Under the pieces are notes generated by a model that did not search any database, had not been told where the DNA came from, and worked only from the letters and a program-made list of their open reading frames with translations. From sequence record PP175015.1: a DNA stretch of 64,000 nucleotides; one strand, 5' to 3'. The position numbers and the translations under genes are program-made. Shown here in pieces: positions 2,522-52,934 of this stretch (position 1 is the stretch's first letter; the number at the start of each line of letters is the position of its first letter). Origin of the DNA: Escherichia phage UE-S5a.

Positions 2522-2539
2522 ATCTATTAATAATATTTC

Positions 2540-3166
2540 TTATATAGAGTTTACTGTTTGCATTGCCCTAATTGATACTGCTGTTAGGGTAATTACTTGT
2601 CCTGAGATATTAAACATACCTAACTGAATACCGTCTACCATGAAAGGGTCAGTTGAACCAAGTGTGTAAGTAGCCAGTACGTTATCTCTGTTAGCAATGT
2701 CTGTACCCTGTACTTTAACACTAGCATCTGAACCTACTATCGTAATTCCATTGGTTCGTCTTGTTTGTGTTCTCCATTCCCTTGCTGTACCTGCACCACC
2801 TGCAATAATTCCTGATATACGAACACTGAACATTACCTGGGTATTCCTGGTTCTAATGGGGAACTTAAGATTTCCTTCTTCAATTGTTAGTGCTGCTGTA
2901 CCTCCAGGTGATTTAGTTATCCCTGGTAATGAAAAGTAATTGAACCAGGATTGGTCATTTACTGCCTGGCTCCCGGTCCATGTATACAAGTCCAGAAGAA
3001 ATGTGTCTTCTAACTCTGTTGGTGGGAAAGGTAGTAGTTCTGGGGGGATCTCTGAGATGTTATTAGCAGAAACTATTCGTTCCCCATAACTTCCCACGAC
3101 CAACAATCCCCCCTTCATTTTGCACACAACATCCCTACCACTTTGGAAAATATCTTTAATAGACAT
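2540..3166 (-). CDS. Hypothetical protein encoded antisense to the late module
   Basis: Track ORF 2540..3193; start moved to second ATG (MSIKDIF...) preceded by GAGG at 6 nt; no recognisable motif. Confidence 0.45.
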   Translation of the reverse strand: MSIKDIFQSGRDVVCKMKGGLLVVGSYGERIVSANNISEIPPELLPFPPTELEDTFLLDLYTWTGSQAVNDQSWFNYFSLPGITKSPGGTAALTIEEGNLKFPIRTRNTQVMFSVRISGIIAGGAGTAREWRTQTRRTNGITIVGSDASVKVQGTDIANRDNVLATYTLGSTDPFMVDGIQLGMFNISGQVITLTAVSIRAMQTVNSI

Positions 3167-14345: not shown

Positions 14346-14358
14346 CAGGAGAATCCCC

Positions 14359-14802
14359 ATGGATTTGTCATTCTTAACAGGCAACCCAACTCCACAGCCA
14401 GCTGCTATGTCTTGGATGTCTAATAACAATCAGAACTTTAATACCCCGGCTATGAACTATAACCCAGGTGCAACTATTGGTATGGGGGCAAATACAGGAG
14501 TAGCCTCCCCTACTTCTTTCCTGTCTGGTTCAGCTGATCAGTTGGGATTGAATGTACCTACCTTCCAATTAGGACTGGGTGCACTTGGTTCATTAGCTAA
14601 TATCTACAGTGGTTTCCAGGCTAATAAGTTAGCCAAAGACCAGTTGAACTTTACTAAGAGTGTTACTAACACTAACCTGAATAACCAGATTAAGTCTTAT
14701 AACACTGCACTGGAAGATCGTGCTCGTAGTCGTGCTACAGCAGAGAACCGTGACCAGTCTACTGCTGATGCTTATATTGCAGCTAATAAATTAACCCGTT
14801 AA
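14359..14802 (+). CDS. Virion protein (N4 gp52-like by position)
   Basis: Track start 14338 is TTG; ATG at 14359 preceded by AGGAGA. Confidence 0.45.
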   Translation: MDLSFLTGNPTPQPAAMSWMSNNNQNFNTPAMNYNPGATIGMGANTGVASPTSFLSGSADQLGLNVPTFQLGLGALGSLANIYSGFQANKLAKDQLNFTKSVTNTNLNNQIKSYNTALEDRARSRATAENRDQSTADAYIAANKLTR

Positions 14803-14814: not shown

Positions 14815-16779
14815 ATGGCTCAAATTACATGGCGTAATGTTGATGCACCTAACTTCTCTGGAGTAGGTGACAGCATTCGCACATTTGGCAACATGATTGG
14901 TAACGCCACCTCTGGCTTAAGTGATGCACTGGGTAATTTCCAGAACGCTGCCAAGCAGGAGGCTGGCAATGCCGTCATGATGAATGCTATGCAGTATCAA
15001 GATCCTACTGAGTACCGTAATGCTTTGGCATCAGGTGCACTGTTTCAGGGGGTTGACCCTTCATTGGTAAACCAGCGTACTCTCCAGAATCTGGATGAGC
15101 GAGCAGGTACACTGCTGACTCAACAAGGACAGCAGGGAACCAATGACTACATTGCATATCGCTTTGGTCGCTTAAAGGATATTAACTCAGCACTAGATAA
15201 TGCTTCTCCGGCTATTCGTTTATTGTCTGAGGCTTATCAGTCTGGTGACCAGAATCGTATTAATACTGCATTGGGTCAGACTCGTGAGGCATTATCTACG
15301 CTCCCAGCTGACCAACAGTTAGAATTGTTAGGTAGTTTACAAGGACAGGGTAGTGCTGCTATTAATCAGGCGAGCAATCGTTTTGATTTGGGTGTTGCTC
15401 AACGTAATGATGCCGATAGTCAGGCAGCTATGGGTGTAATGGCACAGATTACCCGTGGTGCTGAGAACCCTAATGATGCCCGTCTGTTGGCAGAAGCATA
15501 CAGTAAGAACCTGTCTCCAGTTGCACAGGCACGCTTGCAGGGATTACTGGCTAATGCTTACCCGGGTGTTTACGGTAATGGTGTAGGTGCTACGTCTGCT
15601 CCTGGTACTGCTGGTACTCGTCAGGGTTCACCTTACGATGTTACTTATCAGTTTGCTGGTACATCTACTCCTATTACTCAAATGAGTATTGGTGATGTAA
15701 TTAAACACCAGGATGGTATGAAATCGAACCAGGGTGCTTCCCCTGTTGGTGCATTCCAGATTAACCAAGCTACTCTGAAAGACTTCGCTCCCAAAGTTCT
15801 TGGTTCAGATTGGCAAAGCCAGCCTCTTTCTGCTGAGAACCAGGATAAGATTGGTAAGGCTATCTTCGAGTCTCGTAAGAATGGCAACCTTAAAGATACC
15901 TGGGCTGCTCTTCCTAACTCTACCCCTGGTGCTTATAAGGATATGACTTGGGAACAGATTAAACCTGTTATTGCCCAAGCTGAAGTAGGGGCTGACCCAT
16001 TCGCTCTGATTCAGAATAATCAAGGAAATCAGGCAGTATCCACTCTGGCTCAGGGTATGATTGGTACTCGTTCTATGCAGGATAATACCGGTAGTCTTAA
16101 TACTGACTTCCTTGGTACTGTCACTGATAATACTCCAGTAGGTGAAATTGCTAACCGTCTATTAGATGGTGACTTTAAAGGTGCTGACCGTAACTGGGTA
16201 CTGAACCGACTAACTGATATTTCTCAACGTGGAAATATGTCACCAGCTATGGCTGCTGCTGTTATGCAGCGTGCACAGACTGGTGTACCGGAAGGTTACA
16301 TTAGCCGTGCTATTGATGCAGTTAACCCATTCATTACCAACGAAGCCGGTAATGGTATGCGTCTTAATGACCGTTTGGTAGATCAGTTAATTGAGGGTGT
16401 ACAACGTGGTGAACCACTGGAAGGCAGTGTGCGTAATCTTGGACGTGCTCAAGCTATGCAGAACATTCAGGCAGCACAGACTGCTTATGATGCTGCTGTA
16501 GCTGCACTGACAAATACTCAGAACAAGATTAACACCGGACAAACAGGACTTACTGCATTGTTACCTGCACGTCAGGAAGCTGTTACTAAAGCTGCTGCAA
16601 TGCTTCAAGCTGCACAAGCCCAAGTGCAAGCAGACCCAGCTAACCTGGCTCCAAGAGGTTTTCGGTCACAGGTTAGTGTGGACAGAGCACGAGCCAAGGA
16701 AGATGAAGAACGTGCTGCACGTTATCTACGTCAGGCACAGGGTTTGCCTGAGTATATGCAACCAAGACAAAATCGGTAA
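14815..16779 (+). CDS. Virion protein (N4 gp51-like by position)
   Basis: 654 aa, Gln/Ala/Asn-rich; immediately upstream of vRNAP gene. Confidence 0.5.
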   Translation: MAQITWRNVDAPNFSGVGDSIRTFGNMIGNATSGLSDALGNFQNAAKQEAGNAVMMNAMQYQDPTEYRNALASGALFQGVDPSLVNQRTLQNLDERAGTLLTQQGQQGTNDYIAYRFGRLKDINSALDNASPAIRLLSEAYQSGDQNRINTALGQTREALSTLPADQQLELLGSLQGQGSAAINQASNRFDLGVAQRNDADSQAAMGVMAQITRGAENPNDARLLAEAYSKNLSPVAQARLQGLLANAYPGVYGNGVGATSAPGTAGTRQGSPYDVTYQFAGTSTPITQMSIGDVIKHQDGMKSNQGASPVGAFQINQATLKDFAPKVLGSDWQSQPLSAENQDKIGKAIFESRKNGNLKDTWAALPNSTPGAYKDMTWEQIKPVIAQAEVGADPFALIQNNQGNQAVSTLAQGMIGTRSMQDNTGSLNTDFLGTVTDNTPVGEIANRLLDGDFKGADRNWVLNRLTDISQRGNMSPAMAAAVMQRAQTGVPEGYISRAIDAVNPFITNEAGNGMRLNDRLVDQLIEGVQRGEPLEGSVRNLGRAQAMQNIQAAQTAYDAAVAALTNTQNKINTGQTGLTALLPARQEAVTKAAAMLQAAQAQVQADPANLAPRGFRSQVSVDRARAKEDEERAARYLRQAQGLPEYMQPRQNR

Positions 16780-16810: not shown

Positions 16811-16873
16811 TACACTGGCTTACTGTAGAGTAAGCTTTCCATATACGATATAAGTTTGAACAGGAAACATGCT

Positions 16874-19800
16874 ATGTCAACATTTGACCGTCTGGCAGGT
16901 TTCGCAGACAGCATCACTAATGCTAAGCAAGTCGATGTCTCTACTGCAACCTCTCAGAAGCAAGCTGCACAAGGGCAAAGCCCTTTCCAATTAACCCCAG
17001 AGAATGCTTACAATCTCCAAACTGGTCGTGTAGGTAATCTTGGAATCGGTGCATTCGAACCAGGTTCACTTCAGGCAGATTTCACTCAAGCCTCCCCATT
17101 AGAAATTCTTAATAAATACGGTAATGAGCAAGGTCTACAGATTCTTAATAGCCGGGCTAATGCTGCTGATGCTGTACGTCAGGACTTATCTAAACAACGT
17201 ACTAACGCAGAAGCATTTGGTGATACTCTTTCTGGTGTTGGTCTTGGTGTTGCTAATACCCTTGGGGGCATTGCTGCTCTTGGCACAGGTCTGGTCAATG
17301 ATAATGCCGGGGCATCCATTGCTTCCGGTATGGATTGGCTGAATGAAGGGGTACACAATCTACAGTCTGATGCTCTGAATGCTACCCGTAAGGTTGTTCA
17401 GAATCAGAACCAGATTTCTGCACAAAAGAACCAGAGACTCTACGAAGAAGATATTAAAAATGGTGAGAACGATTTAGTTGCCTCCCTGTCTCGTATTGGT
17501 CGTGATGCTTTTGATTCTGTTGCTAATACACTTAATAATGGTATGGCTGCTACTGATGGGCTGAGTGAAGGTGTTGGTTCTCTCTTTACCGGTGGTCCAT
17601 TAATTCGTGGTGTATCTGCACTCGGTAAAGTAATGGTAGGTGGTGATAAAGCTGTTAAGGGTATTACCTTAGCTGCTGAGTTAGGTTCACGTCCTGCACA
17701 GGTTGCATTGTCTGCTGGTCGTGTTGCTGCACCTGCTATTGCAATTGGTGGTATGGAAGCTGGTGGTGCATACCAACAGACTGCTTCCGAAATCATGAAG
17801 ATGTCCCATCAAGAATTGGCAAGTAAGTCTCCTGTTTATCAACAGCATATCGCTGATGGTTTATCTCCTGATGAAGCACGTCGCCAAACTGCATCTGAAA
17901 CGGGTATCATTGCTGCTGGCTTAACTGCTCCGGTTGCTGCTGCTACTGGTCCTCTGGTATCCAAATTTGAACTTAACCCACTTAAGGTAGGTTCGCTGGC
18001 TGGTGCTGGTTCTAACATGCTACGTGAAACAGTAGAAGAAGGTATTCAGTCTGGTACAAGTCAGTTTGCACAGAACAAGGCAATTCAGGGTAATGTAGAT
18101 GCTAAGCGTGATTTGCTTAAAGGTGTCGGTGAGCAAGCAGGTCTTGGTGCACTCTACGGCTTCGGTAGTGCTGGTGTTGCTCAGGCTCCAGGTACAACTG
18201 TTAAAGCTGTTGGTGCTTCTGCTGGGCCTGCTTTACGTACTACTCTGGCTGGTGCTTCTCTGGTTGGTAGTGCATTAGCAAAAGCTGCCTCTCCTATTAC
18301 TAACATCCTGGTTCAGCGTGGCGAAGAAGTTGCTAAGCGTAATGAACAAGCTTCCCCTGTATCTGATGCTACGGTTAATGCTGCTGCACAAGAAGCTACT
18401 GCTCAAGCAGAACAAGCACAAGCAACTGTACAAGAAGCAGTAGATGCAATGGATATTTCTCCTGAAGATAAAGCTGCTGCTACTCAGTATGCTGCTGACT
18501 TAACTCAGGCAATGAAATTTGACCCAGTAGAACTGGAACAAGCTAACCCAGCAATCCGTGAAGCTGTTTCTGGTTCCACTAACCGTGTTGAAGCTATTCA
18601 GAAGATGGCTGACCTGGTTAATACTGCCGAAGACCCTAACGTTCAAATGGAAGCTGCAATCCAGATGTATGACAACATCATGTCTATGGATAGCTTCATT
18701 AACCGTGATCCTGGTGCTTTAGCTAATCTGGAACAGGGTTCTCCTGCTGCTAATATTGTTGACCAGTTCTCCGGCCTGATGGCTAACGTTCAGAATACAC
18801 CAAAGGTACTTCGTGCATTCCGTGCCATCCATTCTATGATTCAGGAACAGGCTGAAGCAGGTAAACTGAAAGCTACCGAAGAAGCTAACCAAGCCCAAGC
18901 AAACAACATTGCTATGGCTGCTGATATGTCTCCAGAAGTACTGGATGCAGACTCAGTGAACATGGTTCTGAAACATGCAAGTGAAGGTAAGATTACACTG
19001 GGGAATCGTCAGCGTGCTGCCCTGCAATCTGCTGCTGCTCTATTGCAAGGAGCACGAGAATTTGACGCTAAAGCAGAAGAACTAGGCTTACGTCCTCAAG
19101 ACATTGTTAGTAAACAGATTAAAACCGACGAGTCTCGTTCTAATGAAGGTCAGTACTCTGCGTTGCAACATGCTAAACGCATTCGTTCTGCGTACAACTC
19201 TGGTAACTTCGATTTGGCTTCCGCTTACCTCGACGACTTTATGAAGTTCGCCCAGCACATGCAGAATAAGGTCGGAGCGTTGAATGAGCATCTGATTTCT
19301 GGGAATGCGGATAAGAATAAGTCTGTCCATTATCAGGCTCTTACTCCCTCCCGTGAATGGGTACGTAGTCGTACTGGTCTTGGTGTTAATCCGTATGATA
19401 CCAAGTCGGTTAAGTTTGCCCAGCAAGTAGGACTGGAGGCCAAAACCGTAGCTGATATTGCTAACGCACTTGCTACGGCTTACCCGGAGCTTAATGTTTC
19501 TCATGTGAAGGTTACTCCATTAGATTCACGTCTGGACAAGCCTGCTGCCCAGGTAGTTAAAGAGTTCCGTCAAGGTGGTCTTGATGCCACTCAGTCTCAA
19601 CAGACCAATGAACCAGTGAATCAGGTTGATGAAACTCCTGCACCAGCGCAAGAGACTACTACTACTGTACAGCCTAAAGCTAAACCAGTGGTAGAAAATA
19701 AGACTGTTCCTGTTAAAGAGGCTAGTTCAAAAGCAGAAGAAGTCTCTACTACTAAGTCTGAAACAGTAGATGCTACCCTCACCAATGAGGATACCACTCA

Positions 19801-22800
19801 AAAAGTAGCTGAAACTAAAACGGAAATGGAAACAGTTTTCCCTGTCTATAACAATGACAAGACACCGAACCAGTTCCTGAAATCATTTACCCTGCCGGAA
19901 GAACCTAAGTCTCGCACCATTGGTTCTGAATCCCCTTTGACTGATATTAAGCAAGCACTGTCTTCTACTGCACGCTTTGAAGCATTCACTCAAAAAGAAA
20001 ATAACGCTCTCACAAGTGATGTGATTAAGCGTTATCAGGACTTAATGGGCTTTGGTGAAACTCTGAAGACTACTCTGTCTGATCGTCTGGCTAAGTTTCT
20101 TGCTAATAAGAACGTTGGTAAACGCTTTGCAGAAGGCACAGAGGCTAACCGTTGGGTAGGTGGTAAGTTACTTAATATCGTAGAGAAAGACGGAGACACC
20201 TTTAAGTTCAATGACCAGTTGTTAGAGACTGCTGTACTTGCTGGTCTGCAATGGCGACTGACTGCTACACAGAATGCTGCTGTTAAAGACATGAAAGATG
20301 TAGCTGCTATTACTGGAGTAGAAGCATCCTTGTTACCTGAAGGTATCCTGGCTGAATTTGAGAATGCTCAGACTCTGGTTGAAGCTACTAACTCACTGGC
20401 TCAAAAGATTGAATCTTACTGGGGATTGAATCGTAATCCTAATGCACCACTGGGTTATACCAAAGGTATTCCAATGGCAATGGCTACAGAGATTCTGTCT
20501 TCTCTCATTGAGATGGGTGAAGTTAAAGAGTCTATGCTTGATGTGTCTGAGATTGACCCAGACTCTAATAAGACCGTCGGTCTGTATACCATTGAGAAGC
20601 TGGATGATAACGATGCCATTAACAAGTTCCCTACTGCTATCGAGGAAGCTGTTCTCGTAGAACCAGAAGAGAAAATGTACTTTGGTGATGATATTCCTTC
20701 CGTGGCTCAAACTCAGTTACGTAACCCTGCTGTTAAGAATACCCCAGAGCAGAAAGCTGCTCTTAAAGCAGAACAGGCTACCGAGTTCCGTGTACACATG
20801 CCGATGGTTAACTTCTATGAAGCATTAGGTCGTGACAACATTCTGGAACTGATGGGTGCTGGTACTCTTAATCCTGAACTGCTGAACGTGAACACTGCTA
20901 AGTCACTGGAGGGTAAAAACCTGTCAGTGTCTATGGCATATGATTCCCTGTTCGGTGTAATCAACCAGTTACAGGAACAGGAGAATGGTCTGGATACGCC
21001 TATTCACTATGGTTACAACATGACCCGTGTAGGTCGTATGCAGATGTTAGGTAAGAACAACCCACAGTCCAGCAAGCTGGTTCGTGAAGCAATTCTGCCA
21101 ACCTTCTCTACTATCGACTTAAGTAATGAAAACAGTCAGACGTTCTCTGATTTCCAGTTAGGTCTGTCTCAGGCATTAGGTATCAAGGTTCATAATATGT
21201 CCCGTGAAGCTATGTCTGAAAAACTGACCAAAGCTCTGGAAGGTAATTTGAAACCTGCTGTTGATATGATGGTTGAGTTTGATAAGTCCGGGCACTTACC
21301 AGCCGATGCAGTAGATATTCTTAAGACATCTCTGGGTGGTGATAAATCATTCGTAGCTCTTATGGCTCTTATGGAGTATGCCCGTTACCTGAACAGTGAT
21401 GACCGTGCCAACTTTAATACCCCACTGTACGTTGAAGCCGATGGTGTAACCAACGGACCAATCAACGCAATGGTATTAATGACTGGTGGTAAGTTCACTT
21501 CAGACTGGATTAAGAATACTGCTAAAGGTGGTCTGTTCTTCGGTAAAGCTGGTAAGACTATGAATGAACATCGTTCACAGGATGACAGTGTTGACCTGTA
21601 TGAAGCATCTACCAATGGTCTGCAACAAGCACTTAATGAGTTACGTACTACTTACCGTAACAACGTTCCGGTTATGAACCAAATGAATCATCTTCAGAAG
21701 TTAATGGACCTGTTTATTAAAGACTTTAACCTGAATGAAGACGGTACTCTGGACCTGAAACGTGGTATCGCTAAAAACCCACTGACCATTACCATCTATG
21801 GTTCAGGTGCTCGTGGTATTGCTGGCAAGATGGTTAGTGCAATTACTGACACCATCTATGAACGATTCAGTGATGTTCTGCAAGCTCGTGCTGCTGACCC
21901 TAGCATTTCCCCAGCTATGGCAATGTTTGGTAAGGAGGCTGCGTCTGAGGCTGATGCTCAGGCTATGCTGGATACTTTCCTTACTTCTATGGAAGCACTG
22001 ACTGGTAATGTTCCAGTTATGCGTAAAGGTGAATTGTCTATTCAACAGGTAGAAGGTGCTCTGACTGGTAAGTTAGACCCTCAGAAGTTTACCGTATCGG
22101 GTAATGCCCTGAAGAACTTACAAGAGAACATGCTTCACCTGTTCGTTGAACCAATGCGTACTGGTATCCGGAATACTGTTGGGGAAGGTCTGATGCATTC
22201 TACTGAGAACTTGCAGAAGGCTACCCAGATTCAGTCTTTGGTTCTACAAGACATGTTCCAACAAGCAGTACAGGCTAAGCTGGCAGAAAAAGAAAAAGAC
22301 CCAACCTGGAAGAAGGGTGATTTCTTAACACAGAAAGAACTGAATGAAATTCAGGAATCATTGTCTCCACTGGCTCCAATGATTGAGACTGGTTCACAGA
22401 CTTTCTATATTGCTGGTAGTGAGAATACTGATGTTGCTAACCAGGTACTGGCTACCAACTTAGATGACCGTATGCGTGTGCCAATGAGCATCTATGCTCC
22501 TTCTCAGGCAGGCGTTGCAGGTATTCCATTTATGACCATTGGCACTGGTGATGGCATGATGATGCAGACCCTTTCTACTATGAAAGGTGCTCCGAAGAAT
22601 ACCCTGAAAATCTTTGATGGTATGAACATTGGTATCGACAACATCACTGATGCAAGTCGTAAAGCTAACGAGGCTGTATACACTTCCTGGCAGGGTAACC
22701 CTATCAAGAATGTTTATGAGTCTTTTACTAAGTTCATGAAGAACGTAGACTTCAGCAAACTATCGGATGAAACCAAACAGGCTATCGCTAAATCTGCTCT

Positions 22801-25800
22801 GGAATATGACCAGCGTGAAGGTGCTACCGATGACCTGTTACGTGTTGGTGCTGAACAGATTGAACGTAACCTGCGTAATATTGCTCTGGGTGTAGATATT
22901 CGTCACAAAGTAATGAACCAGGTACAGACTACTGTTGACCAGATGGCTGCTGTTGGTGCTCCTTATGTGAACAACGGTAAAATCTCTCTGGAAGGTCTGA
23001 CCGTAGACCAACAAGTAGCTAAGCTAAATGAACTGTTCGATGCTGAATTAAACAAACGTCGTGATGCAGTACGTGCTGCTAAAGTAGAACCAGTGAAAGA
23101 AGTGCCAGCAATGGAACAGGTTGGTCGTGTACTGAAGTCTGGTGTACGCCTACTGTCTAATACTGCTATCTCTAAGCTGGCTAAAGAGATGTCTCCGGAA
23201 CAGCAAGCAGTACTGAAAGAAGTACAGAAATCCCTTGCTGCTAAAGACTATAAGGTTGTTTACGGTACACCTTCCCAACTGGATGCTTATGCTATTGAGA
23301 AGAATATTACTCGCCCAGCACCAGAAGATATTGAAGCTGCTGAAGCTGGTAATGCGTATGGTTGGACTAACTTTGAAGATAAGACCATCTACTTAGTTAC
23401 CCCTTCCTTAGAGACTCTGGTTCATGAATTGGTGCATGCTTCTACTTTTGAATCTGTACTGGCTCACTATGAGGGTACTCCTAATGAAGCGGTCCAGAAC
23501 ATTGAAGACCTGATGAACCAGTTCCGTGCTCTGGATGTTAAGGATGAATCCCCGGCAGTTCGGGAAGCATATGCAGATGCTCTTAATACTATTAACGGTC
23601 ATTTATCTAATGGCTTTATTGAGCCAGCAATGGCTAAAGCTGCTGCACTGAATGAGTACATGGCATGGGGTTTAACCAACCGTGAACTGATTAGTAAGCA
23701 GAAGAAAACCACTGCACTTAAGACTATGGTTCAGGCTGTATATGAAGCAATTAAACGTCTGGTATTCGGGCGTAAGAAAGCACCAGCTAATGCAGATGAT
23801 ATGTTCTCTGGCTTACTGTTTAACTCGTCCGTAGTTATGCGTGGGCAAGCTCCTACTGCTGCTGTAGCCAAAGATACTACTCTGTTCCATAACAAAACGT
23901 ATGGTGACAATACTCGTCTGGAAGAGCTAGGGAAAACCTTCGATAAACTGATTACTGACTACATTGGTTCTGAACCAGTACAGCAAGTAATTCGTAAAGG
24001 TAAGTTCTCTGATGCAGTGGTTAATGCGACTAAAGTAACTCGTGATGTTCAGGCTCATGGCTTCACTATGAATATGCAGGAACAACGTCTCTTTACTAAC
24101 ATTGTTGCTGCTCTGGCTACTGAGGCTGCTATTAATCCTGCTGCTCTGGCTCGTGCGCAGGAATACTACACACATGTTACTAAGAACCTGACCGTTGAGT
24201 CATTCATGGCTGACCCAGATAGTACTAACCCTGCTGACCGTTACTATGCACAGCAGAAGTTCGATACCATCATGGGTGCTAACAACATTGAGTTTGATTC
24301 ACAAGGTCGTTCCTCCTTACTGCCTACCTTTATTGGTCTGGCGATGGTAAGTGAAGAGGTACGTAAAGTGCTGGCTGATATTCCAGTTATGAAAGTAGAC
24401 AAGAAATCTGGCAATACCGCTGATGCAATGCTGACTAACATCGGTACTGCTGCAATGGCTAGTCTGAATGCTCGTGTAGCAGGAGATACTAAAGCTACCA
24501 ACGTACAGGAAGGTATGGATGCACTGGCTCAGACAATCATGCAGACCAGTCTTAATGCACAATCCTTCTATGATTCCGTTGCTACTCCTACGGGTAATGC
24601 TATTGATCGTGCTAACCAGTATCTGGTGGACTCTATTGATGTACTGTCTACCCGTGCTTTAGAAGGTGCTCGTGAAGTTGCAGCTAATACCAAGAACCCG
24701 TTGGTTAAAGGTGCTGCCCATGCTGCACAATTAATAGCTGCTATTGCTACAGAGAAGAATGGTGCAATCGTAGCCGAAGGTGTTATGGCTGCAATGAACC
24801 AAGGTAAAGTATGGCAACCCTTTCACGATCTGGTTAATGACTTAACTGGTCGTACTAAGAGTAATGCTTCTGTATATGATTTGATTAAGGCAGTGCGTGC
24901 CCAGGTACAGGCTGACCGTCAACAGTTCCGTGAACATCTGCCCACCACTATCGCATCTAAGTTCAGCCGTAAGCTGACTAATGATGAGTGGAAAGCAATG
25001 CATACCGGTATGGGTAAAACCGACTTAGCTGTTCTGCGTGACACTATGTCTCTGGGTGAAATTCGTGACTTGCTGACTGACCAAAAGATTGTTGACCGTG
25101 AAGTGAATAAGCTGGAAGCAGATTTGCAGAAACAAGCAGGACGTAACTGGCCTTTGATTAGCCGTAAATCTAAGCAACTGGCTCAGTACATGATTAATGG
25201 CACAGTTGGTAATAACTTGCTGCGTAATGCTACTGCAATCTCTCGTATGCTGGGTGAACGACAGGCTGCACGTTCTACTGTAGACGTAGCTCAACTGGAT
25301 AAACTGATTACTCTGTATGCACTGGAAGCAATGAGTAAGACTGACCGTGAGATGTTATCTTCACTGGCTCAATCAGAAGCTGATGGGATTGATTTTGCTA
25401 CTTCTTATCTGGTTGGACAGCGTAAAGATGAAATGGCTAAAGCCAAATCTGACATGCGTGCAACCCTGAACCAGTACAAAGGGTATATTCCTGGTGAGAC
25501 TAAACAGGGTGTTAACTTGATTGTTGCTGAAGATAGTCAGTTTGCTGATTTGATTGAGAAGTCCTATGTACGTCTGGGTACTTATCAGGGTAGCTCTGCT
25601 AATCGTGGTCCAGCACGTAGCTACTACTTTGCACCGGTACAGGCACAGGCTCCATTCTCGCAAGGTATCTTACAGAACGTTCGCAATACTGCTGGTGGTG
25701 TAGACCTTGGTACAGGCTTTACGATGGGTACAATGGTAGCTGGTCGTATCACTGACAAGCCTTCTGTAGACCGTATCACTAAAGCACTGGCTCGCGGTGA

Positions 25801-27226
25801 ACGTGGTAATGAACCACTGCTGCCTGTATATGATGATAAAGGCAATGTGGTTGCTTATGAGCAATCTATTGACCCTAACATGCTGAAGCACATTGAGGGT
25901 GAGAACCATCTCGCTCGTGCAATCGGTGTATGGCGTGGTCGTCAGGTAGAGGAAGCTAAGGCTCAGCGTTTCAACGATATGCTGATTGAGAACCTGCATA
26001 GCATGTATAAAAACGACATTAAAATGTCTGCCTCTAACAAGTCACAGTACGTTAACCTTCTTGGTTCTAAACTGGACCCAGTAACTGCTGATGCCCTTAA
26101 GCTGATGAACAGTGAAACTCGTCAGAAAGCAGAAAGTCTGTTTGGTCCTGGTGAGTTGTGGGTACGTCGTGACATGCTGAATGATGCACTGGGCTATCGT
26201 GCAGCTTCCGTAGGTGATGCCTGGTCTGGCAATTCTCGTTGGTCACCAGAAACACTGGATACCTTCAAGAAAGCTATGTTGGGTGTATTCGGCAACCGTG
26301 CTTATAAGTATGTAATGGGTGGTGAGAACCTGGTTCAAAACTTAGTTAAAGAAGCTAAGACTCTGATTGTAGTTAAATCAGTAGTTGTTCCTGCTGTTAA
26401 CTTCCTGGCTAACCTTTACCAGATGGTTGGTCGTGGTGTACCTGTTAAGAACATTGCTAAGAGCATTCCACAGAAGACTGCTGAGATTAACCAGTACCTG
26501 AAATCTCGTCTGCGTCAGGTAGATGCAGAAGCAGAATTACGTGCAGCTACTAACCCGAACCAGATTCGTAAGCTTAAGGCTGAAATTCAGTCCATCACTG
26601 ATAGTCATAAGCGTATGAGTATCTGGCCTCTGTTAGAAGCTGGTGAGTTTTCTTCAATTGCAGATGCTGGTATTGGACGAGATGACATCCTGATTACTGA
26701 AGGTAAACTTCACGAATACATGGATAAACTGGTTGATAAGTTACCTAAGTCTGTACGTAATGCTGGACGTTATGCCCTTATCACCAAGGATACTGCTTTA
26801 TTCCAGGGTATCCAGAAGACGGTTGAGTACTCTGACTTTATTGCTAAAGCAATCATCTATGATGATTTGACTCAGCGTAAAGGTAAGACTCGTGAAGAAG
26901 CACTTGGACGTGTAACGGAAGAGTTCATTAACTATGACCGTCTGCCTGGTCGCTTCCGTGGGTATATGGAAAGTGTTGGTCTTATGTGGTTCTATAACTT
27001 TAAGATTCGTTCTGCAAAAATTGCAGTATCCATGATTCGTAACAACCCGGTACACGCAGCTATGGCTATGTTGGCTCCAACTCCTACCATGTTTGGTAAT
27101 GTTGGTTTACCTATTCAGGACAACATCTTCAGTATTGCTGCACAAGGCAATCTCGGTTACTCCTGGGGCTTCGGTCAGGGACTTCGTGCCCATAACCTTA
27201 ACCCTTGGCTCAATCTAGCTAACTAA
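16874..27226 (+). CDS. Virion-encapsidated RNA polymerase (vRNAP), N4 gp50-like
   Basis: About 3450 aa (track ORF starts on TTG at 16856; ATG at 16874 has AGGAAA RBS); central region carries T7-like polymerase motifs: PLYVEADGVTNGP (motif A-like), RGIAKNPLTITIYGSGARG (motif B, R..K..YG), IFDGMNIG (motif C). Confidence 0.9.
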   Translation: MSTFDRLAGFADSITNAKQVDVSTATSQKQAAQGQSPFQLTPENAYNLQTGRVGNLGIGAFEPGSLQADFTQASPLEILNKYGNEQGLQILNSRANAADAVRQDLSKQRTNAEAFGDTLSGVGLGVANTLGGIAALGTGLVNDNAGASIASGMDWLNEGVHNLQSDALNATRKVVQNQNQISAQKNQRLYEEDIKNGENDLVASLSRIGRDAFDSVANTLNNGMAATDGLSEGVGSLFTGGPLIRGVSALGKVMVGGDKAVKGITLAAELGSRPAQVALSAGRVAAPAIAIGGMEAGGAYQQTASEIMKMSHQELASKSPVYQQHIADGLSPDEARRQTASETGIIAAGLTAPVAAATGPLVSKFELNPLKVGSLAGAGSNMLRETVEEGIQSGTSQFAQNKAIQGNVDAKRDLLKGVGEQAGLGALYGFGSAGVAQAPGTTVKAVGASAGPALRTTLAGASLVGSALAKAASPITNILVQRGEEVAKRNEQASPVSDATVNAAAQEATAQAEQAQATVQEAVDAMDISPEDKAAATQYAADLTQAMKFDPVELEQANPAIREAVSGSTNRVEAIQKMADLVNTAEDPNVQMEAAIQMYDNIMSMDSFINRDPGALANLEQGSPAANIVDQFSGLMANVQNTPKVLRAFRAIHSMIQEQAEAGKLKATEEANQAQANNIAMAADMSPEVLDADSVNMVLKHASEGKITLGNRQRAALQSAAALLQGAREFDAKAEELGLRPQDIVSKQIKTDESRSNEGQYSALQHAKRIRSAYNSGNFDLASAYLDDFMKFAQHMQNKVGALNEHLISGNADKNKSVHYQALTPSREWVRSRTGLGVNPYDTKSVKFAQQVGLEAKTVADIANALATAYPELNVSHVKVTPLDSRLDKPAAQVVKEFRQGGLDATQSQQTNEPVNQVDETPAPAQETTTTVQPKAKPVVENKTVPVKEASSKAEEVSTTKSETVDATLTNEDTTQKVAETKTEMETVFPVYNNDKTPNQFLKSFTLPEEPKSRTIGSESPLTDIKQALSSTARFEAFTQKENNALTSDVIKRYQDLMGFGETLKTTLSDRLAKFLANKNVGKRFAEGTEANRWVGGKLLNIVEKDGDTFKFNDQLLETAVLAGLQWRLTATQNAAVKDMKDVAAITGVEASLLPEGILAEFENAQTLVEATNSLAQKIESYWGLNRNPNAPLGYTKGIPMAMATEILSSLIEMGEVKESMLDVSEIDPDSNKTVGLYTIEKLDDNDAINKFPTAIEEAVLVEPEEKMYFGDDIPSVAQTQLRNPAVKNTPEQKAALKAEQATEFRVHMPMVNFYEALGRDNILELMGAGTLNPELLNVNTAKSLEGKNLSVSMAYDSLFGVINQLQEQENGLDTPIHYGYNMTRVGRMQMLGKNNPQSSKLVREAILPTFSTIDLSNENSQTFSDFQLGLSQALGIKVHNMSREAMSEKLTKALEGNLKPAVDMMVEFDKSGHLPADAVDILKTSLGGDKSFVALMALMEYARYLNSDDRANFNTPLYVEADGVTNGPINAMVLMTGGKFTSDWIKNTAKGGLFFGKAGKTMNEHRSQDDSVDLYEASTNGLQQALNELRTTYRNNVPVMNQMNHLQKLMDLFIKDFNLNEDGTLDLKRGIAKNPLTITIYGSGARGIAGKMVSAITDTIYERFSDVLQARAADPSISPAMAMFGKEAASEADAQAMLDTFLTSMEALTGNVPVMRKGELSIQQVEGALTGKLDPQKFTVSGNALKNLQENMLHLFVEPMRTGIRNTVGEGLMHSTENLQKATQIQSLVLQDMFQQAVQAKLAEKEKDPTWKKGDFLTQKELNEIQESLSPLAPMIETGSQTFYIAGSENTDVANQVLATNLDDRMRVPMSIYAPSQAGVAGIPFMTIGTGDGMMMQTLSTMKGAPKNTLKIFDGMNIGIDNITDASRKANEAVYTSWQGNPIKNVYESFTKFMKNVDFSKLSDETKQAIAKSALEYDQREGATDDLLRVGAEQIERNLRNIALGVDIRHKVMNQVQTTVDQMAAVGAPYVNNGKISLEGLTVDQQVAKLNELFDAELNKRRDAVRAAKVEPVKEVPAMEQVGRVLKSGVRLLSNTAISKLAKEMSPEQQAVLKEVQKSLAAKDYKVVYGTPSQLDAYAIEKNITRPAPEDIEAAEAGNAYGWTNFEDKTIYLVTPSLETLVHELVHASTFESVLAHYEGTPNEAVQNIEDLMNQFRALDVKDESPAVREAYADALNTINGHLSNGFIEPAMAKAAALNEYMAWGLTNRELISKQKKTTALKTMVQAVYEAIKRLVFGRKKAPANADDMFSGLLFNSSVVMRGQAPTAAVAKDTTLFHNKTYGDNTRLEELGKTFDKLITDYIGSEPVQQVIRKGKFSDAVVNATKVTRDVQAHGFTMNMQEQRLFTNIVAALATEAAINPAALARAQEYYTHVTKNLTVESFMADPDSTNPADRYYAQQKFDTIMGANNIEFDSQGRSSLLPTFIGLAMVSEEVRKVLADIPVMKVDKKSGNTADAMLTNIGTAAMASLNARVAGDTKATNVQEGMDALAQTIMQTSLNAQSFYDSVATPTGNAIDRANQYLVDSIDVLSTRALEGAREVAANTKNPLVKGAAHAAQLIAAIATEKNGAIVAEGVMAAMNQGKVWQPFHDLVNDLTGRTKSNASVYDLIKAVRAQVQADRQQFREHLPTTIASKFSRKLTNDEWKAMHTGMGKTDLAVLRDTMSLGEIRDLLTDQKIVDREVNKLEADLQKQAGRNWPLISRKSKQLAQYMINGTVGNNLLRNATAISRMLGERQAARSTVDVAQLDKLITLYALEAMSKTDREMLSSLAQSEADGIDFATSYLVGQRKDEMAKAKSDMRATLNQYKGYIPGETKQGVNLIVAEDSQFADLIEKSYVRLGTYQGSSANRGPARSYYFAPVQAQAPFSQGILQNVRNTAGGVDLGTGFTMGTMVAGRITDKPSVDRITKALARGERGNEPLLPVYDDKGNVVAYEQSIDPNMLKHIEGENHLARAIGVWRGRQVEEAKAQRFNDMLIENLHSMYKNDIKMSASNKSQYVNLLGSKLDPVTADALKLMNSETRQKAESLFGPGELWVRRDMLNDALGYRAASVGDAWSGNSRWSPETLDTFKKAMLGVFGNRAYKYVMGGENLVQNLVKEAKTLIVVKSVVVPAVNFLANLYQMVGRGVPVKNIAKSIPQKTAEINQYLKSRLRQVDAEAELRAATNPNQIRKLKAEIQSITDSHKRMSIWPLLEAGEFSSIADAGIGRDDILITEGKLHEYMDKLVDKLPKSVRNAGRYALITKDTALFQGIQKTVEYSDFIAKAIIYDDLTQRKGKTREEALGRVTEEFINYDRLPGRFRGYMESVGLMWFYNFKIRSAKIAVSMIRNNPVHAAMAMLAPTPTMFGNVGLPIQDNIFSIAAQGNLGYSWGFGQGLRAHNLNPWLNLAN

Positions 27227-49271: not shown

Positions 49272-49714
49272 TAGAATGACCTTAGATAGTTGGTGATACC
49301 ACTACGGTTTTCTGTAATTTTCTTAACCTGAACATATACCAGCTTAAACTCACTACGGGGTAGTTCTTGTAATACTGCTACACCTTCAGTAAGGGCCACA
49401 GAACACGCTACAGCGGTTTCTTTTTTAAAGGAGTATAAGTCTTCATACATGAGGGCTTCATACTCCCTGCGGAGCATACAGAGAGCATCTCTTGCCTTAT
49501 CACTTACTTCTTGTGAACCAGCAGACATAGCTAAGCTGTATATGATAAAGATTTGTTCAAAAACAAAGTCCAGTAATCTATCAGGATTGTTAGTCCCCAT
49601 GAATAATTTTGATGTGTAGGAACGGGCTTTACGGTTGAGTTCATACTCATCCTCTATGCCTTTATTGTAAAGAACAGGATTTCGTTCCCTTTTCCGTAGG
49701 AATGGGATACGCAT
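49271..49714 (-). CDS. Hypothetical protein
   Basis: 147-aa ORF, ATG start, coupled to ThyX gene. Confidence 0.45.
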   Translation of the reverse strand: MRIPFLRKRERNPVLYNKGIEDEYELNRKARSYTSKLFMGTNNPDRLLDFVFEQIFIIYSLAMSAGSQEVSDKARDALCMLRREYEALMYEDLYSFKKETAVACSVALTEGVAVLQELPRSEFKLVYVQVKKITENRSGITNYLRSF

Positions 49715-50103
49715 TAGTATTTACTACCTCTTCTATACCAAGGGTAATGATGGGTAGTGCTCTTGCCTTTGAACACATCCTTAGTACGAGGATTCTTTTG
49801 TATTTGAGCCAGGTAAAGATGCATTTCGTCGTAACACGGACTAAGCCAGAACTTATCTATGATTCGGTCTACCTTAGATTTCAGATGAGGTTCTGGTGGA
49901 ATATATGAAGAAGTATTAAAAGGTTTTCTAGTAGTCCAATTCTTCATAATAATATTTTGCATTACTGCATAAACATCAGGACCAATTCCATTCTCTTCTA
50001 CTTGATCATGGATAGTTTTACCCAAAGTAAGCATTGCAGTTTGTTCCAGCTTACTTAAGTCCAGTCCTTGCAGGATAGACTTACCATTTTGTCTGCTTGA
50101 CAT
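49714..50103 (-). CDS. Hypothetical protein
   Basis: Track ORF extends through an upstream terminator hairpin; start moved to ATG 50103. Confidence 0.4.
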   Translation of the reverse strand: MSSRQNGKSILQGLDLSKLEQTAMLTLGKTIHDQVEENGIGPDVYAVMQNIIMKNWTTRKPFNTSSYIPPEPHLKSKVDRIIDKFWLSPCYDEMHLYLAQIQKNPRTKDVFKGKSTTHHYPWYRRGSKY

Positions 50104-50114
50104 AAGAGTACCTG

Positions 50115-50146
50115 TAAATAAAAAAGCCCACGGGTTAGGTGGGCTT
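50115..50146 (-). terminator. Candidate rho-independent terminator (minus sense)
   Basis: AGCCCAC-gggttag-GTGGGCT preceded on + strand by A-run. Confidence 0.4.
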
Positions 50147-50220
50147 GGGTTAGGAGATGGATAAGCAATGAGCTGGAAGTAACTTCCGCAAGCACCACTA
50201 TGCAATGATGCTTAGGTTAG

Positions 50221-50463
50221 TTACTCTGCTTTACTGCCACCATTGGTTTGAACAACAGTTACGTTTGTAACTTGGTTCTGACCTTTGTTGGACAGTGACC
50301 AAATCAGTGCTACTACCCAGAAGACTAAAGACCAGCCTAATACAATATTAAGCACACCAATGCCCCACTTGGAGGCATGGCCTCGTGCAAAAGCAATGAT
50401 AGTAGGGATGAGGTATACAGCTAATACAAACAACATAACAAGGATTGCTGCTAAAGATTCCAT
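50221..50463 (-). CDS. Superinfection immunity (T4 Imm-like) membrane protein
   Basis: ATG 50463 with AGGAA RBS (track start GTG); about 80 aa; IPTIIAFARGHASKWGIGVLNIVLGWSLVFWVVALIWSL resembles the Imm family conserved core. Confidence 0.5.
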   Translation of the reverse strand: MESLAAILVMLFVLAVYLIPTIIAFARGHASKWGIGVLNIVLGWSLVFWVVALIWSLSNKGQNQVTNVTVVQTNGGSKAE

Positions 50464-50536
50464 GATGGTTCCTATGTGAGGTTGAGTTAGTTTCTTCACA
50501 AATAGCCCAACTATGCTGGGCTATTTAGGCAGCTAC

Positions 50537-50746
50537 TTACTCAGCATCTTTGCTTGCAGGAGCAAGAGCTTTCTTCAGGTAATTGCGTACTGAACGATAG
50601 GTTTCTTTAGTATCCATAGCACTATCATTTACGAAAGTGATACGTGCACAATCAGACAGCGGAATCTGCTCCACTGCAATTACATTTGCAGCATTAATGG
50701 TTACACGTACATCTGAGGTTGCATGAGTTACTTGAAATACTGACAT
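50537..50746 (-). CDS. Hypothetical protein
   Basis: 69-aa ORF. Confidence 0.35.
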   Translation of the reverse strand: MSVFQVTHATSDVRVTINAANVIAVEQIPLSDCARITFVNDSAMDTKETYRSVRNYLKKALAPASKDAE

Positions 50747-51283: not shown

Positions 51284-52458
51284 TATTTCATTCCTTTAGG
51301 GATATGAACTACCTCCCCAAAAGGTACGGTAGCATTGGGATTATTCAGAACACACCAGATGATAGGAATATCAAATGGTAATTCTTCCATTGGACGAACA
51401 TACATATCGGAGAATATGATTGCAGCGGTTGGTTTATTCTTAATAATCCACTCGCGTACTGGTTCCAGGTTTGTACCACCACGACCGGTAATCTTAATCT
51501 CTTCAAAAGTATCTTCTTCAGTGATGTCTATCTCTTCTTGGATAATATCGTCGAAGGTAATTAAGGACATCTTCTTAGGATTGAACTGGCTCTTAACGTA
51601 GGCAACCTCTGAGTTAAAACGCAGAGAGTCAGCACTACTAATAGAACCAGATACATCCTCAAAGTAGGCTAAGTGTCGTAAGCGTCCTTCATCATCTTCC
51701 ATGGAAGGTAGATAGATGTCAGTAAAACGACGGTTAGGTCTGGCCCACGTATAATGAGTATCGTCAATGTCGGTAAAGAAGTTCATGAGGACTTCCTGCC
51801 ATGGAACCACTGGTTTAAGGAATTGGGTAATAACCTCTTCCATACGACCAGCACCCTTACCGGGCATCTGTCCACCAGCCATTTTCTGGCTCTGCATTGC
51901 TCGTACTACGTTGTTGACGACAGCACCCTGGGACTGCCCCGAAGTGGGGGATTTCATGTCGCCAGCAAGACCTGCTCCAGCACCCCCTGACGGCTTCTGC
52001 CTTTTCTGAGGGTTCTTCATCAGGTCATCGTAGATGTCTTCTTCGACCCATCCTTTATATTGAGGGTCTTTGCAAATACCTTTATCAATGCCAGTGAACT
52101 TATAACCATCTTCTTCTAACTGAAGGTTAATGAAGTGGTCACACGCCTGGTTCCAGATTTCTGGGTCACGGCTTCCACGACGGATGCCATGCAGATATGC
52201 CACATGCCAAAGTTCATGCATTAACACTGTTTCTCTGGCATCTGGACACATCCAGATAAAGAAATCTGGATTGAAGTGAAGTTCTATCCCATCAGTACAT
52301 GCAGTGGGACAATTCTCACGTTTCCATGAGAACTTAAGACTACATAGTAATGAACCAAAGAACGCAGCACTGCGTCCGAGAAATGCGTTGGCCTGTATTC
52401 TATCGTATTCCCTCATTAACTGTTCATCAGTGAGGTTATGTGGTGGTATGTTATTCAT
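51283..52458 (-). CDS. VWA-domain protein with N-terminal HExxH metallopeptidase-like domain (DUF2201-type)
   Basis: HELWHVAYLHG (HExxH) in N-terminal half; C-terminal half has VWA-like layout; partner of the AAA ATPase below. Confidence 0.55.
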   Translation of the reverse strand: MNNIPPHNLTDEQLMREYDRIQANAFLGRSAAFFGSLLCSLKFSWKRENCPTACTDGIELHFNPDFFIWMCPDARETVLMHELWHVAYLHGIRRGSRDPEIWNQACDHFINLQLEEDGYKFTGIDKGICKDPQYKGWVEEDIYDDLMKNPQKRQKPSGGAGAGLAGDMKSPTSGQSQGAVVNNVVRAMQSQKMAGGQMPGKGAGRMEEVITQFLKPVVPWQEVLMNFFTDIDDTHYTWARPNRRFTDIYLPSMEDDEGRLRHLAYFEDVSGSISSADSLRFNSEVAYVKSQFNPKKMSLITFDDIIQEEIDITEEDTFEEIKITGRGGTNLEPVREWIIKNKPTAAIIFSDMYVRPMEELPFDIPIIWCVLNNPNATVPFGEVVHIPKGMK

Positions 52459-52934
52459 TAAGATGCTCCATGATTTATATGGTAACCCAATAATTTTTCT
52501 GCTTCCTTTCTGGCTGTAATGGCCTCTTGTTTACTGTTAAACTTTCCTAAGTAAATTTGTTTACCATTATCATTTATATGGGCAGCCCAGATTTTATCTC
52601 GGGTGTGCCAGTAAACTCCTGTCACACCTGATGTATTTGTAATTCTCTTGGTTTGATTTTTGCAATTAATCGAGTTTGTTACTAAACGGAAATTGCTTGG
52701 GTAATTATTTAATCTATTATGGTCAATATGGTCTACCTGCATACCGTCAGGAATTGGTCCAATCTCCATTTCATAAATTATGCGGTGAACTAAATGCATT
52801 TTCTTGTTACATTTAACACGCAAATACCCACTGTTATCCAAACAACCGGCAATGGCACCTGCTTTTACGCAGCCCCTGCTTACTTTCCAGTAGAGGGAAC
52901 CATTGCTATAAACAAATAGTTCATGCCAATTCAT
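52458..52934 (-). CDS. HNH-AP2 homing endonuclease
   Basis: HNH core QVDHIDHNRLNN...LVTNSIN; AP2-type domain NTSGVTGVYWHTRDKIWAAHINDNGKQIYLGKFNSKQEAITARKEAEKLLGY. Confidence 0.8.
   Translation of the reverse strand: MNWHELFVYSNGSLYWKVSRGCVKAGAIAGCLDNSGYLRVKCNKKMHLVHRIIYEMEIGPIPDGMQVDHIDHNRLNNYPSNFRLVTNSINCKNQTKRITNTSGVTGVYWHTRDKIWAAHINDNGKQIYLGKFNSKQEAITARKEAEKLLGYHINHGAS

What the first reader, a model, noticed from the sequence alone, without database searches (positions are those of the whole stretch)
50221..50463. T4 Imm-like superinfection immunity protein in an N4-like phage
An 80-aa two-TM protein whose conserved core (IPTIIAFARGH ... NIVLGWSL..W.VALIWS) resembles the Imm family that blocks DNA injection by superinfecting phage. 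It would give this phage a superinfection exclusion function.
Basis: partly seen in the sequence, partly recalled or inferred. Interest (0 to 1): 0.45.

Follow-up and report, generated by a model that had tools for sequence, protein, structure and literature searches.

The report
Imm-type superinfection immunity gene, N4-like phage
This is a real 80-residue membrane protein gene of the phage T4 Imm family in a G7C-like (N4-like) coliphage, already annotated as such in sister phages, and its presumed job of blocking DNA entry by later-arriving phages has never been tested in this phage group.

Summary
An 80-aa ORF lies on the minus strand at 50221..50463, with a good ribosome-binding site and two hydrophobic segments. 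It matches Pfam PF14373 Imm_superinfect over the whole model (61.9 bits, cut-off 27.9). T4 Imm itself scores 58.2.

The window is 100% identical over the 3-kb stretch compared to Escherichia phage UE-M3 (Schitoviridae, Gamaleyavirus). UE-M3 calls the gene hypothetical. G7C (gp27.1), Bp4, ECBP1 and St11Ph5 already carry "immunity to superinfection" labels, so this is not new.

The core is under strong purifying selection (dN/dS 0-0.07 within the genus). The two T4 Imm residues whose mutation weakens exclusion (R33, W50) align with R27 and W44.

The gene occupies one fixed slot, between the N4 gp27 and gp28 homologues, in G7C-like phages and sister contigs. N4 itself has no copy. It sits between duplicated hairpins and ahead of an intrinsic terminator, with no promoter of its own detected.

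The mechanism is inferred: an inner-membrane block of genome translocation by a secondary phage. One point is open. T4 Imm acts by binding the tape measure protein, and this podovirus has no gp29-like protein. So the target could be its own ejectosome or competing tailed phages.

The parts
50221..50463 (-). imm-like CDS, 80 aa (UE-M3 locus tag UEM3_054; equivalent to G7C gp27.1). The Pfam Imm_superinfect domain covers residues 16-57. The C-terminal tail (58-80) is variable and predicted disordered.
50469..50473 (-). Shine-Dalgarno-like AGGAA, 5 nt before the ATG
   Evidence: Read directly from the sequence. It is conserved in five relatives.
50499..50527 (-). Hairpin between the gp27-like gene and imm, 11-13 bp stem with apical CATAGT. 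The following T-run is only 3 T, so it is not a canonical terminator. G7C annotates a stem_loop at this position.
   Evidence: (z -2.9). The stem covaries in L005 (GCCCC/GGGGC).
50190..50213 (-). Second copy of the same hairpin unit, just after the imm stop codon (AAGCATCA..TGGTGCTT, apical CATAGT, then TTGCGGAAGTTACTTCC)
   Evidence: There are compensatory stem changes in St11Ph5 and L005. This copy corresponds to the single hairpin after N4 gp27.
50114..50146 (-). Intrinsic terminator: 8-bp GC-rich stem (AAGCCCAC/GTGGGCTT) followed by TTTTTTATTT. It ends the transcription unit that contains imm.
   Evidence: The N4 gp27-gp28 spacer has the equivalent (GCCCAC..GTGGGC TTTTTT).
50537..50746 (-). 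Upstream gene, N4 gp27 homologue (69 aa), probably co-transcribed with imm
49714..50103 (-). Downstream gene, N4 gp28 homologue. UE-M3 annotates it from TTG 50205, but the likely start is ATG 50103, after the terminator.

Best explanation
The gene encodes a small inner-membrane protein of the T4 Imm family.

Expression (inferred from position): the phage makes it during its own lytic cycle. It is the last gene of a transcription unit in the nucleotide-metabolism and replication block, which in N4 is the middle region. The order is dCTP deaminase, gp27-like, imm, terminator.

Action (inferred by homology to T4 Imm): once in the membrane, it stops the genome of a later-arriving phage from crossing the inner membrane. 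It would do so by binding the membrane-inserting part of that phage's DNA-conduit protein, so that no channel forms. The first phage thereby keeps the cell to itself.

What is shown here: the ORF is real and under constraint, it belongs to the family, the functionally tested residues are conserved, the hydrophobic architecture and fold are as expected, and its genomic slot is fixed.

What is inferred: membrane location, time of expression, the exclusion phenotype itself, and the target. The target cannot simply be copied from T4, because this podovirus has no gp29-like tape measure protein.
For: Family membership:
- PF14373 at 61.9 bits, full length. T4 Imm scores 58.2.
- PHROG 1039 at E 1e-29.
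- BLASTP to T4 Imm at E 3e-10.
- Reciprocal phmmer finds only this ORF.

Functional residues: T4 R33A and W50A reduce exclusion (bioRxiv 10.64898/2026.03.06.709160). In alignment A2 these are R27, which is invariant, and W44, which is conserved in at least 90% of sequences. In A3, R27, G28, H29, S31, G43, W49 and W55 are invariant across 45 sequences.

Architecture: two hydrophobic segments with a basic loop. The AF2 model has pLDDT 85 with helices 2-17, 19-26, 32-42 and 46-57, and W44 lies in the loop between the last two.

Selection: dN/dS is 0-0.07 within the genus.

Fixed synteny: the gene is in the same slot in G7C, Bp4, ECBP1, St11Ph5, K57alpha1.2 and four more divergent N4-like contigs.

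Location argues against a lysis role: it lies in the early-to-middle half of the genome, away from any lysis cassette.

Ecological rationale: Gamaleyaviruses use abundant O-antigen as receptor, so a receptor-level block is impractical during lytic growth (bioRxiv 10.1101/2024.09.12.612763).
Against: - There is no experiment on any N4-like Imm homologue in the searchable literature.
- The only characterised mechanism is binding to T4 tape measure protein gp29. Neither the window nor N4 encodes a gp29 homologue (best E 0.63).
- The candidate self-type targets, the gp51 and gp52 homologues, show no classical hydrophobic helix at Kyte-Doolittle >=1.4.
- EC1-UPM has a 96%-identical Imm but a gp51 whose C-terminal two thirds are only 36-58% identical. 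So Imm and gp51 do not co-vary.
- N4 shows superinfection-dependent lysis inhibition without any Imm.
- The family is very large and includes many longer proteins, so a family name is a weak guide to function.
- There is no hit in PADLOC or NCBIfam.
Confidence: 0.6

Rival explanations
1. The protein is an Imm-family membrane protein whose main role is to protect the infected cell envelope. It would limit damage from secondary adsorptions (lysis from without, 'secondary traumatisation') or tune lysis timing and lysis inhibition. Keeping foreign genomes out would not be its main job.
For: [quoted passage not shown] The phage carries rIIA and rIIB homologues. N4-type phages show superinfection-triggered lysis inhibition.
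Against: N4 does lysis inhibition without Imm. In T4 these phenotypes are plausibly consequences of the entry block, which now has a structural basis. The gene is not near the lysis genes.
Confidence: 0.15
2. The protein is a conserved small membrane protein with the Imm fold but an unrelated function, for example modulating a host inner-membrane protein or transporter. On this view the 'superinfection immunity' label is carried over from T4 without justification.
For: There are 8069 cluster representatives, many longer than 100 aa and so carrying extra sequence beyond the domain. Close homologues are labelled only by similarity. No defence-database model matches.
Against: The residues that matter for exclusion in T4 are conserved. 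Most named close relatives are in virulent phages of several families, where an exclusion role is the simplest shared selective advantage.
Confidence: 0.15
3. The protein is a holin- or antiholin-like lysis protein.
For: It is small, has two hydrophobic segments and a polar C-terminus. T4 Imm has been said to resemble a holin (PMC6832632).
Against: There is no holin family hit. The gene lies among nucleotide-metabolism genes. The N4-type lysis cassette (gp60-63) is in the late, oppositely oriented half of the genome, and it already supplies a pinholin and a regulator.
Confidence: 0.05
4. It is a chance ORF or a decaying remnant.
For: In Bp4 a 1-nt deletion truncates the tail to 67 aa. PGN829.1 annotates only 44 aa.
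Against: dN/dS is 0-0.07. The ribosome-binding site is conserved. The gene sits at the same slot in all relatives examined. The Bp4 truncation spares the whole Pfam domain.
Confidence: 0.02

Closest known systems
Phage T4 Imm (NP_049660, 83 aa)
   Same: Same Pfam family with similar scores. Same size and domain position (residues 22-63 in T4, 16-57 here). Same pattern of two hydrophobic segments with a basic loop. R33/W50 are conserved as R27/W44. Both are encoded by a virulent phage outside its structural genes.
   Different: Only 30% identical. T4 is a myovirus whose Imm binds its own kind's tape measure protein gp29. UE-M3 is a podovirus with no gp29 homologue. The neighbours differ: T4 imm lies between genes 42 and 43 with imm.1, while here it lies between gp27-like and gp28-like genes. 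No Sp (spackle) partner was looked for.
G7C gp27.1 and its orthologues in Bp4, ECBP1, St11Ph5, EC1-UPM, Moo19 ('putative membrane immunity protein' / 'immunity to superinfection')
   Same: These are orthologues at the same slot, with the core 93-100% identical within Gamaleyavirus (Moo19 is more divergent, about 61-69% overall). The flanking hairpins and terminator are the same in the Gamaleyavirus relatives aligned.
   Different: The C-terminal tail has alleles of 80, 83, 86 and 67 aa. The UE-M3 record leaves the gene as 'hypothetical protein'.
HK97 gp15 and P22 SieA (inner-membrane exclusion proteins that block genome entry)
   Same: The proposed logic is the same: a small inner-membrane protein interferes with the incoming phage's membrane-crossing protein. 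For HK97 gp15 that protein is the tape measure protein (cited; P22 SieA paper listed).
   Different: They are not homologous by any search here. Both are expressed from prophages, not by a virulent phage.
[quoted passage not shown]
   Same: This is an analogy drawn by the T4 Imm structure paper: a membrane protein that blocks insertion of a helical-bundle pore-former.
   Different: There is no sequence relationship, and the system is a bacteriocin rather than a phage.

Membership tests
Imm_superinfect (Pfam PF14373) / T4 Imm family | Profile match above the curated gathering score, covering the whole domain | tested here: met
   61.9 bits against 27.9, model positions 1-42 of 42, E 5.3e-17. 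T4 Imm scores 58.2 bits. PHROG 1039 gives E 1.2e-29.
Imm_superinfect (Pfam PF14373) / T4 Imm family | Direct, reciprocal similarity to the characterised member, T4 Imm | tested here: met
   BLASTP gives 30% identity over 61 aa, E 3e-10. T4 Imm as a phmmer query hits only this ORF in the window plus N4 six-frame set, E 9.4e-9.
Imm_superinfect (Pfam PF14373) / T4 Imm family | Small single-domain protein (about 60-90 aa) with two hydrophobic stretches separated by a short basic loop | tested here: met
   80 aa. Hydrophobic maxima are 2.8 and 2.3, and the loop holds R27, H29 and K32. T4 shows the same pattern.
Imm_superinfect (Pfam PF14373) / T4 Imm family | Conservation of the residues shown by mutagenesis to matter for exclusion in T4 (R33, W50) | tested here: met
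   R27 is invariant and W44 is at least 90% conserved in A2. The mutagenesis data are in bioRxiv 10.64898/2026.03.06.709160.
Imm_superinfect (Pfam PF14373) / T4 Imm family | Four-helix membrane fold shared with other family members | tested here: met
   The AF2 model has pLDDT 85.3 and four helices. The top six Foldseek BFVD hits have probability 1.00; five of them are annotated superinfection immunity proteins and one carries no name. TM-scores normalised to the query are 0.47-0.63, and E-values are weak at 2e-3 to 4e-2. No solved structure is available for comparison.
Imm_superinfect (Pfam PF14373) / T4 Imm family | Inner-membrane location with a periplasmic N-terminus | not testable with these tools
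   There is only a hydropathy prediction. The T4 topology is taken from the literature cited.
Imm_superinfect (Pfam PF14373) / T4 Imm family | Expression alone lowers the plating efficiency of the excluded phage by blocking genome translocation | not testable with these tools
   This needs plaque assays and DNA-entry assays. No published test on an N4-like homologue was found.
Imm_superinfect (Pfam PF14373) / T4 Imm family | Binds the tape measure protein of the phage's own kind (the T4 mechanism) | tested here: not met
   No T4 gp29 homologue is found in the window or in complete N4 (best E 0.63). N4-like phages deliver DNA through the gp52/gp51/gp50 ejectosome (PMC13434306). This bears on mechanism and target, not on sequence-family membership. 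About 9.7 kb of UE-M3 lies outside the window.
Moron (self-contained accessory transcription unit) | Own promoter upstream and own terminator downstream | tested here: inconclusive
   The terminator is present (50146..50124). No sigma-70-like promoter was found on the minus strand upstream, but N4-type middle promoters are not covered by the scan. The gene is an insertion relative to N4.
Holin | Encoded in the lysis cassette next to the endolysin or spanin | tested here: not met
   The neighbours are dCTP deaminase, gp27-, gp28- and gp29-like genes, and ThyX. N4 lysis genes gp60-63 are in the late region.

The most novel reading that the evidence does not exclude
T4 Imm works by binding the tape measure protein, and this podovirus has no gp29-like protein. 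The Gamaleyavirus Imm may therefore recognise a different class of target. One candidate is the inner-membrane end of the N4-type ejectosome (gp51 C-terminus or gp50 N-terminal domain), which would show that the Imm fold is a general blocker of phage membrane channels. The other possibility is that it does not exclude its own kind at all and is a cross-family weapon against T-even or siphovirus competitors in the same host. The second option fits two observations: Imm does not co-vary with gp51 (EC1-UPM), and among the non-N4-like hits sampled the closest homologues sit in tailed phages of 28-55 kb or 158-289 kb.
Probability: 0.3. Interest if true: 0.5.

Novelty: already known. Interest (0 to 1): 0.15.

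Why it matters
As it stands this is a correct re-annotation of one 'hypothetical protein' in UE-M3. It adds little, because G7C gp27.1 has carried the label in its GenBank record and RefSeq uses it for several sister phages.

It has two modest uses. The first is practical: Gamaleyaviruses are candidates for therapy cocktails, and an entry-blocking protein could make them antagonise co-administered phages. The second is mechanistic. With the 2026 finding that T4 Imm binds the tape measure protein, an Imm orthologue fixed in a clade of tape-measure-less podoviruses is a clean natural test of whether the family is specific to tape measure proteins.

Tried and rejected
- 92-aa GTG start at 50499: rejected, because it is not conserved and lies inside a hairpin.
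- Sigma-70 promoter directly upstream of imm: none found on the minus strand.
- A guessed motif, TTGTGRAAG, as a genome-wide promoter or terminator signal: one unrelated match, no more than chance, and my pattern did not even fit the two local copies. A scan for hairpins with an apical ATAG showed the element is specific to this locus in both the window and N4.
- NCBIfam and PADLOC: no meaningful hit.
- PDB by sequence profile and by fold: nothing real. The 8erw hit is a designed repeat protein matching a low-complexity stretch.
- T4 gp29 against the window and N4: no homologue.
- Kyte-Doolittle search for classical TM helices in the gp51 and gp52 homologues: none at >=1.4, although the N4 paper reports membrane insertion by amphipathic helices.
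- Literature searches for any functional test of an N4-like or Gamaleyavirus Imm: none found.
- Lu & Henning 1989 (PMC250924) is not held. My recollection that T4 Imm excludes T-even phages irrespective of receptor rests on memory only.
- Two literature queries failed on term length.

Full report
**What is there.**
On the minus strand, 50463..50221, there is an 80-codon ORF (ATG to TAA). AGGAA lies 5 nt upstream of the ATG.
- The ORF listing extends the frame to a GTG at 50499 (92 aa).
- That GTG sits inside a hairpin, is GAG in phage ECBP1, and is out of frame in a more distant relative. So the 80-aa product is the real one.
- Hydropathy shows two hydrophobic stretches, about residues 3-25 and 34-57, with 19-residue Kyte-Doolittle maxima of 2.8 and 2.3. 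A short basic loop (R27, H29, K32) separates them, and T4 Imm has the same layout.

**Where the window comes from.**
- The 3 kb around the gene is 100% identical to Escherichia phage UE-M3 (PP301342.1; Schitoviridae, Enquatrovirinae, Gamaleyavirus, the G7C-like N4 relatives).
- It is 90-98% identical to about 50 other Gamaleyavirus records.
- The window also holds a 3456-aa virion RNA polymerase ORF.
- In UE-M3 the gene is UEM3_054, 'hypothetical protein'.
- In G7C it is gp27.1, 'putative membrane immunity protein; similar to Imm of phage JS98'.
- RefSeq calls the orthologues in Bp4, ECBP1, St11Ph5, EC1-UPM and Moo19 'immunity to superinfection'.
- The identification is therefore already in the public record.

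**Family membership.**
- Pfam PF14373 Imm_superinfect matches at 61.9 bits (gathering score 27.9), E 5.3e-17, over the whole 42-position model.
- T4 Imm, fetched from NC_000866, scores 58.2 bits on the same model.
- PHROG 1039 'immunity to superinfection' matches at E 1.2e-29.
- Pairwise BLASTP to T4 Imm gives 30% identity over 61 residues, E 3e-10.
- T4 Imm used as a phmmer query against all six-frame ORFs of the window and of complete N4 finds only this ORF, E 9e-9.
- An alignment with relatives and T4 Imm has invariant Y17, P20, I23, R27, G28, S31, I35, W49 and W55.
- An AlphaFold2 model built on 45 homologues has mean pLDDT 85 and four helices (2-17, 19-26, 32-42, 46-57). The tail, residues 58-80, has low confidence.
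- Foldseek against predicted viral structures returns eight hits, six of them annotated superinfection immunity proteins and two unnamed, at weak E-values.
- There is no solved structure to compare with.

**Is it a working gene?**
- Over core residues 17-60, Nei-Gojobori dN/dS against G7C, Bp4, ECBP1, St11Ph5 and K57alpha1.2 is 0-0.07. Each pair has 6-11 synonymous and 0-1.5 non-synonymous differences.
- Against three of the four more divergent N4-like metagenome contigs it is 0.13-0.19; for L011 dS was saturated.
- Those four contigs (L005, L011-L013) carry the gene at exactly the same slot: AAA ATPase, VWA/DUF2201, dCTP deaminase, a roughly 66-aa gene, Imm, two small genes, ThyX.
- Their Imm is only 56-61% identical to UE-M3's, while the neighbouring dCTP deaminase is 88-95% and ThyX 80-82% identical. 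Imm therefore evolves at accessory-gene speed around a fixed core.

**Relation to N4.**
- N4 has gp26 (dCTP deaminase), gp27, gp28, gp29 and gp30 (ThyX).
- gp27, gp28 and gp29 are homologues of UEM3_055, _053 and _052.
- N4 has no Imm anywhere. The gene is therefore an insertion in the G7C-side clade or a loss in N4.

**The local anatomy is tidy.**
- N4's 113-bp gp27-gp28 spacer holds one strong hairpin with apical ATAGT, then a canonical terminator.
- In UE-M3 the same hairpin unit occurs twice: before imm (50527..50499) and right after its stop codon (50213..50190).
- The terminator follows the second copy (50146..50124 plus a T-run).
- The stems change by compensatory substitutions in L005 and St11Ph5.
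- The unit is unique to this locus in both genomes.
- No sigma-70-type promoter lies upstream on the coding strand.
- My reading, which is inference, is that imm is read through from the dCTP-deaminase/gp27 transcript and is the last gene before the terminator. By synteny with N4 that is the middle-gene block.

**How it most likely works.**
The only studied family member is T4 Imm. A 2026 preprint (bioRxiv 10.64898/2026.03.06.709160) reports the following.
- Imm co-purifies with a membrane-associated fragment of the tape measure protein gp29.
- It sits against the hydrophobic patch of the gp29 helical-bundle domain and so blocks formation of the inner-membrane conduit.
- R33A and W50A weaken exclusion.
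- The N-terminus faces the periplasm.

In my alignment T4 R33 is UE-M3 R27 (invariant). T4 W50 is W44 (at least 90% conserved), and in the model W44 lies in the loop between the last two helices. The best-supported mechanism is therefore the same in kind: an inner-membrane protein that stops a secondary phage's genome from crossing the membrane. I give this 0.6.

**What does not transfer from T4.**
- UE-M3 is a podovirus. Neither the window nor N4 encodes anything like gp29 (best E 0.63).
- N4-type phages build an ejectosome from gp52 (outer membrane), gp51 (periplasmic tunnel with a hydrophobic C-terminus) and the gp50 N-terminal domain (PMC13434306).
- The UE-M3 homologues (14338..14802, 14815..16779, 16856..27226) have no classical hydrophobic helix by my simple scan. 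T4 gp29 has a strong one at residues 227-259.
- EC1-UPM has a 96%-identical Imm but a gp51 whose C-terminal two thirds are only 36-58% identical. Imm does not track gp51.
- In the sampled tblastn table, the nearest homologues outside N4-like phages are in genomes of 28-55 kb or 158-289 kb: Acinetobacter AP22-like myoviruses, T4-like Klebsiella and Citrobacter phages, and Kagunavirus and Jersey-like siphoviruses. None of the hits below 60% identity is in a 70-kb genome.
- Whether this Imm excludes its own kind, or competitors that carry tape measure proteins, cannot be decided here.

**Rivals.**
- An envelope-protection or lysis-inhibition role is possible, since T4 imm mutants show such defects (PMC6832632). 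But N4 shows superinfection-triggered lysis inhibition without Imm.
- A different function hidden behind a family label is also possible. The family has 8069 50%-identity cluster representatives at E<=1e-3, many longer than 100 aa, and no defence database lists it.
- A holin role is unlikely from the gene's position.
- A dead gene is excluded by the substitution pattern.

**Verdict.**
The finding is ordinary and already annotated in sister genomes. The exclusion function remains an untested inference. The one point worth an experiment is the target of an Imm protein in a phage that has no tape measure protein.

Noticed in passing
window 50103..50205 (minus strand): UE-M3 annotates UEM3_053 from a TTG at 50205, so the CDS runs through the intrinsic terminator at 50146..50124. 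Bp4 and ECBP1 annotate a shorter gene of about 126-128 aa. The likely start in UE-M3 is ATG 50103 (129 aa, the N4 gp28 homologue).
   Followed up: partly
window 50499..50527 and 50190..50213 (minus strand); L003 13046..13070: imm is bracketed by two copies of one unit: stop codon, about 10 nt, a hairpin with apical CATAGT, then TTGTG/CGGAAG. N4 has a single copy after gp27. The stems covary between phages, and the unit occurs nowhere else in the window or in N4. It may be a recombination boundary or an RNA processing or attenuation signal.
   Followed up: partly
window 50221..50292 (C-terminal tail of Imm); L006, L007, L009: The tail after SNKG is mosaic among relatives. There is an 80-aa form (this phage), an 86-aa form (G7C), an 83-aa hybrid (St11Ph5) and a 67-aa form in Bp4 caused by a 1-nt deletion. 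The Pfam domain is intact in all four. PGN829.1 annotates only 44 aa.
   Followed up: partly
L006 (G7C) 1761..1885: G7C has no gp28 homologue. After the imm terminator the sequence goes straight to the gp29 homologue.
   Followed up: no
window 52458..52934 (minus strand): An HNH homing endonuclease (158 aa) sits between the AAA ATPase and VWA/DUF2201 genes. It is absent at that junction in contigs L005 and L011-L013, so it looks like a mobile insertion.
   Followed up: no
window 50537..50746 (minus strand): UEM3_055 is annotated 'methyl-accepting/DNA response regulator'. It is a 69-aa homologue of N4 gp27 and has no Pfam match above threshold, so the product name looks unsupported.
   Followed up: partly
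L015 (EC1-UPM) 601..2547 versus window 14815..16779: The gp51 ejection-protein homologue is mosaic. The first roughly 200 residues are 80-98% identical between EC1-UPM and UE-M3, and the rest only about 25-68%. gp52 shows the reverse pattern, with the C-terminal half 96-100% identical.
   Followed up: partly
window 56029/55995, 55091/55035, 48122/48086 (minus strand): Three further intergenic sites pair a non-terminator hairpin with a canonical terminator 20-40 nt downstream. This is the same layout as after imm.
   Followed up: no
L003 7668..7982 (N4 gp18): N4 lacks Imm but RefSeq labels gp18 'superinfection exclusion, similar to P22 gp17'. I did not check whether UE-M3 keeps a homologue.
   Followed up: no
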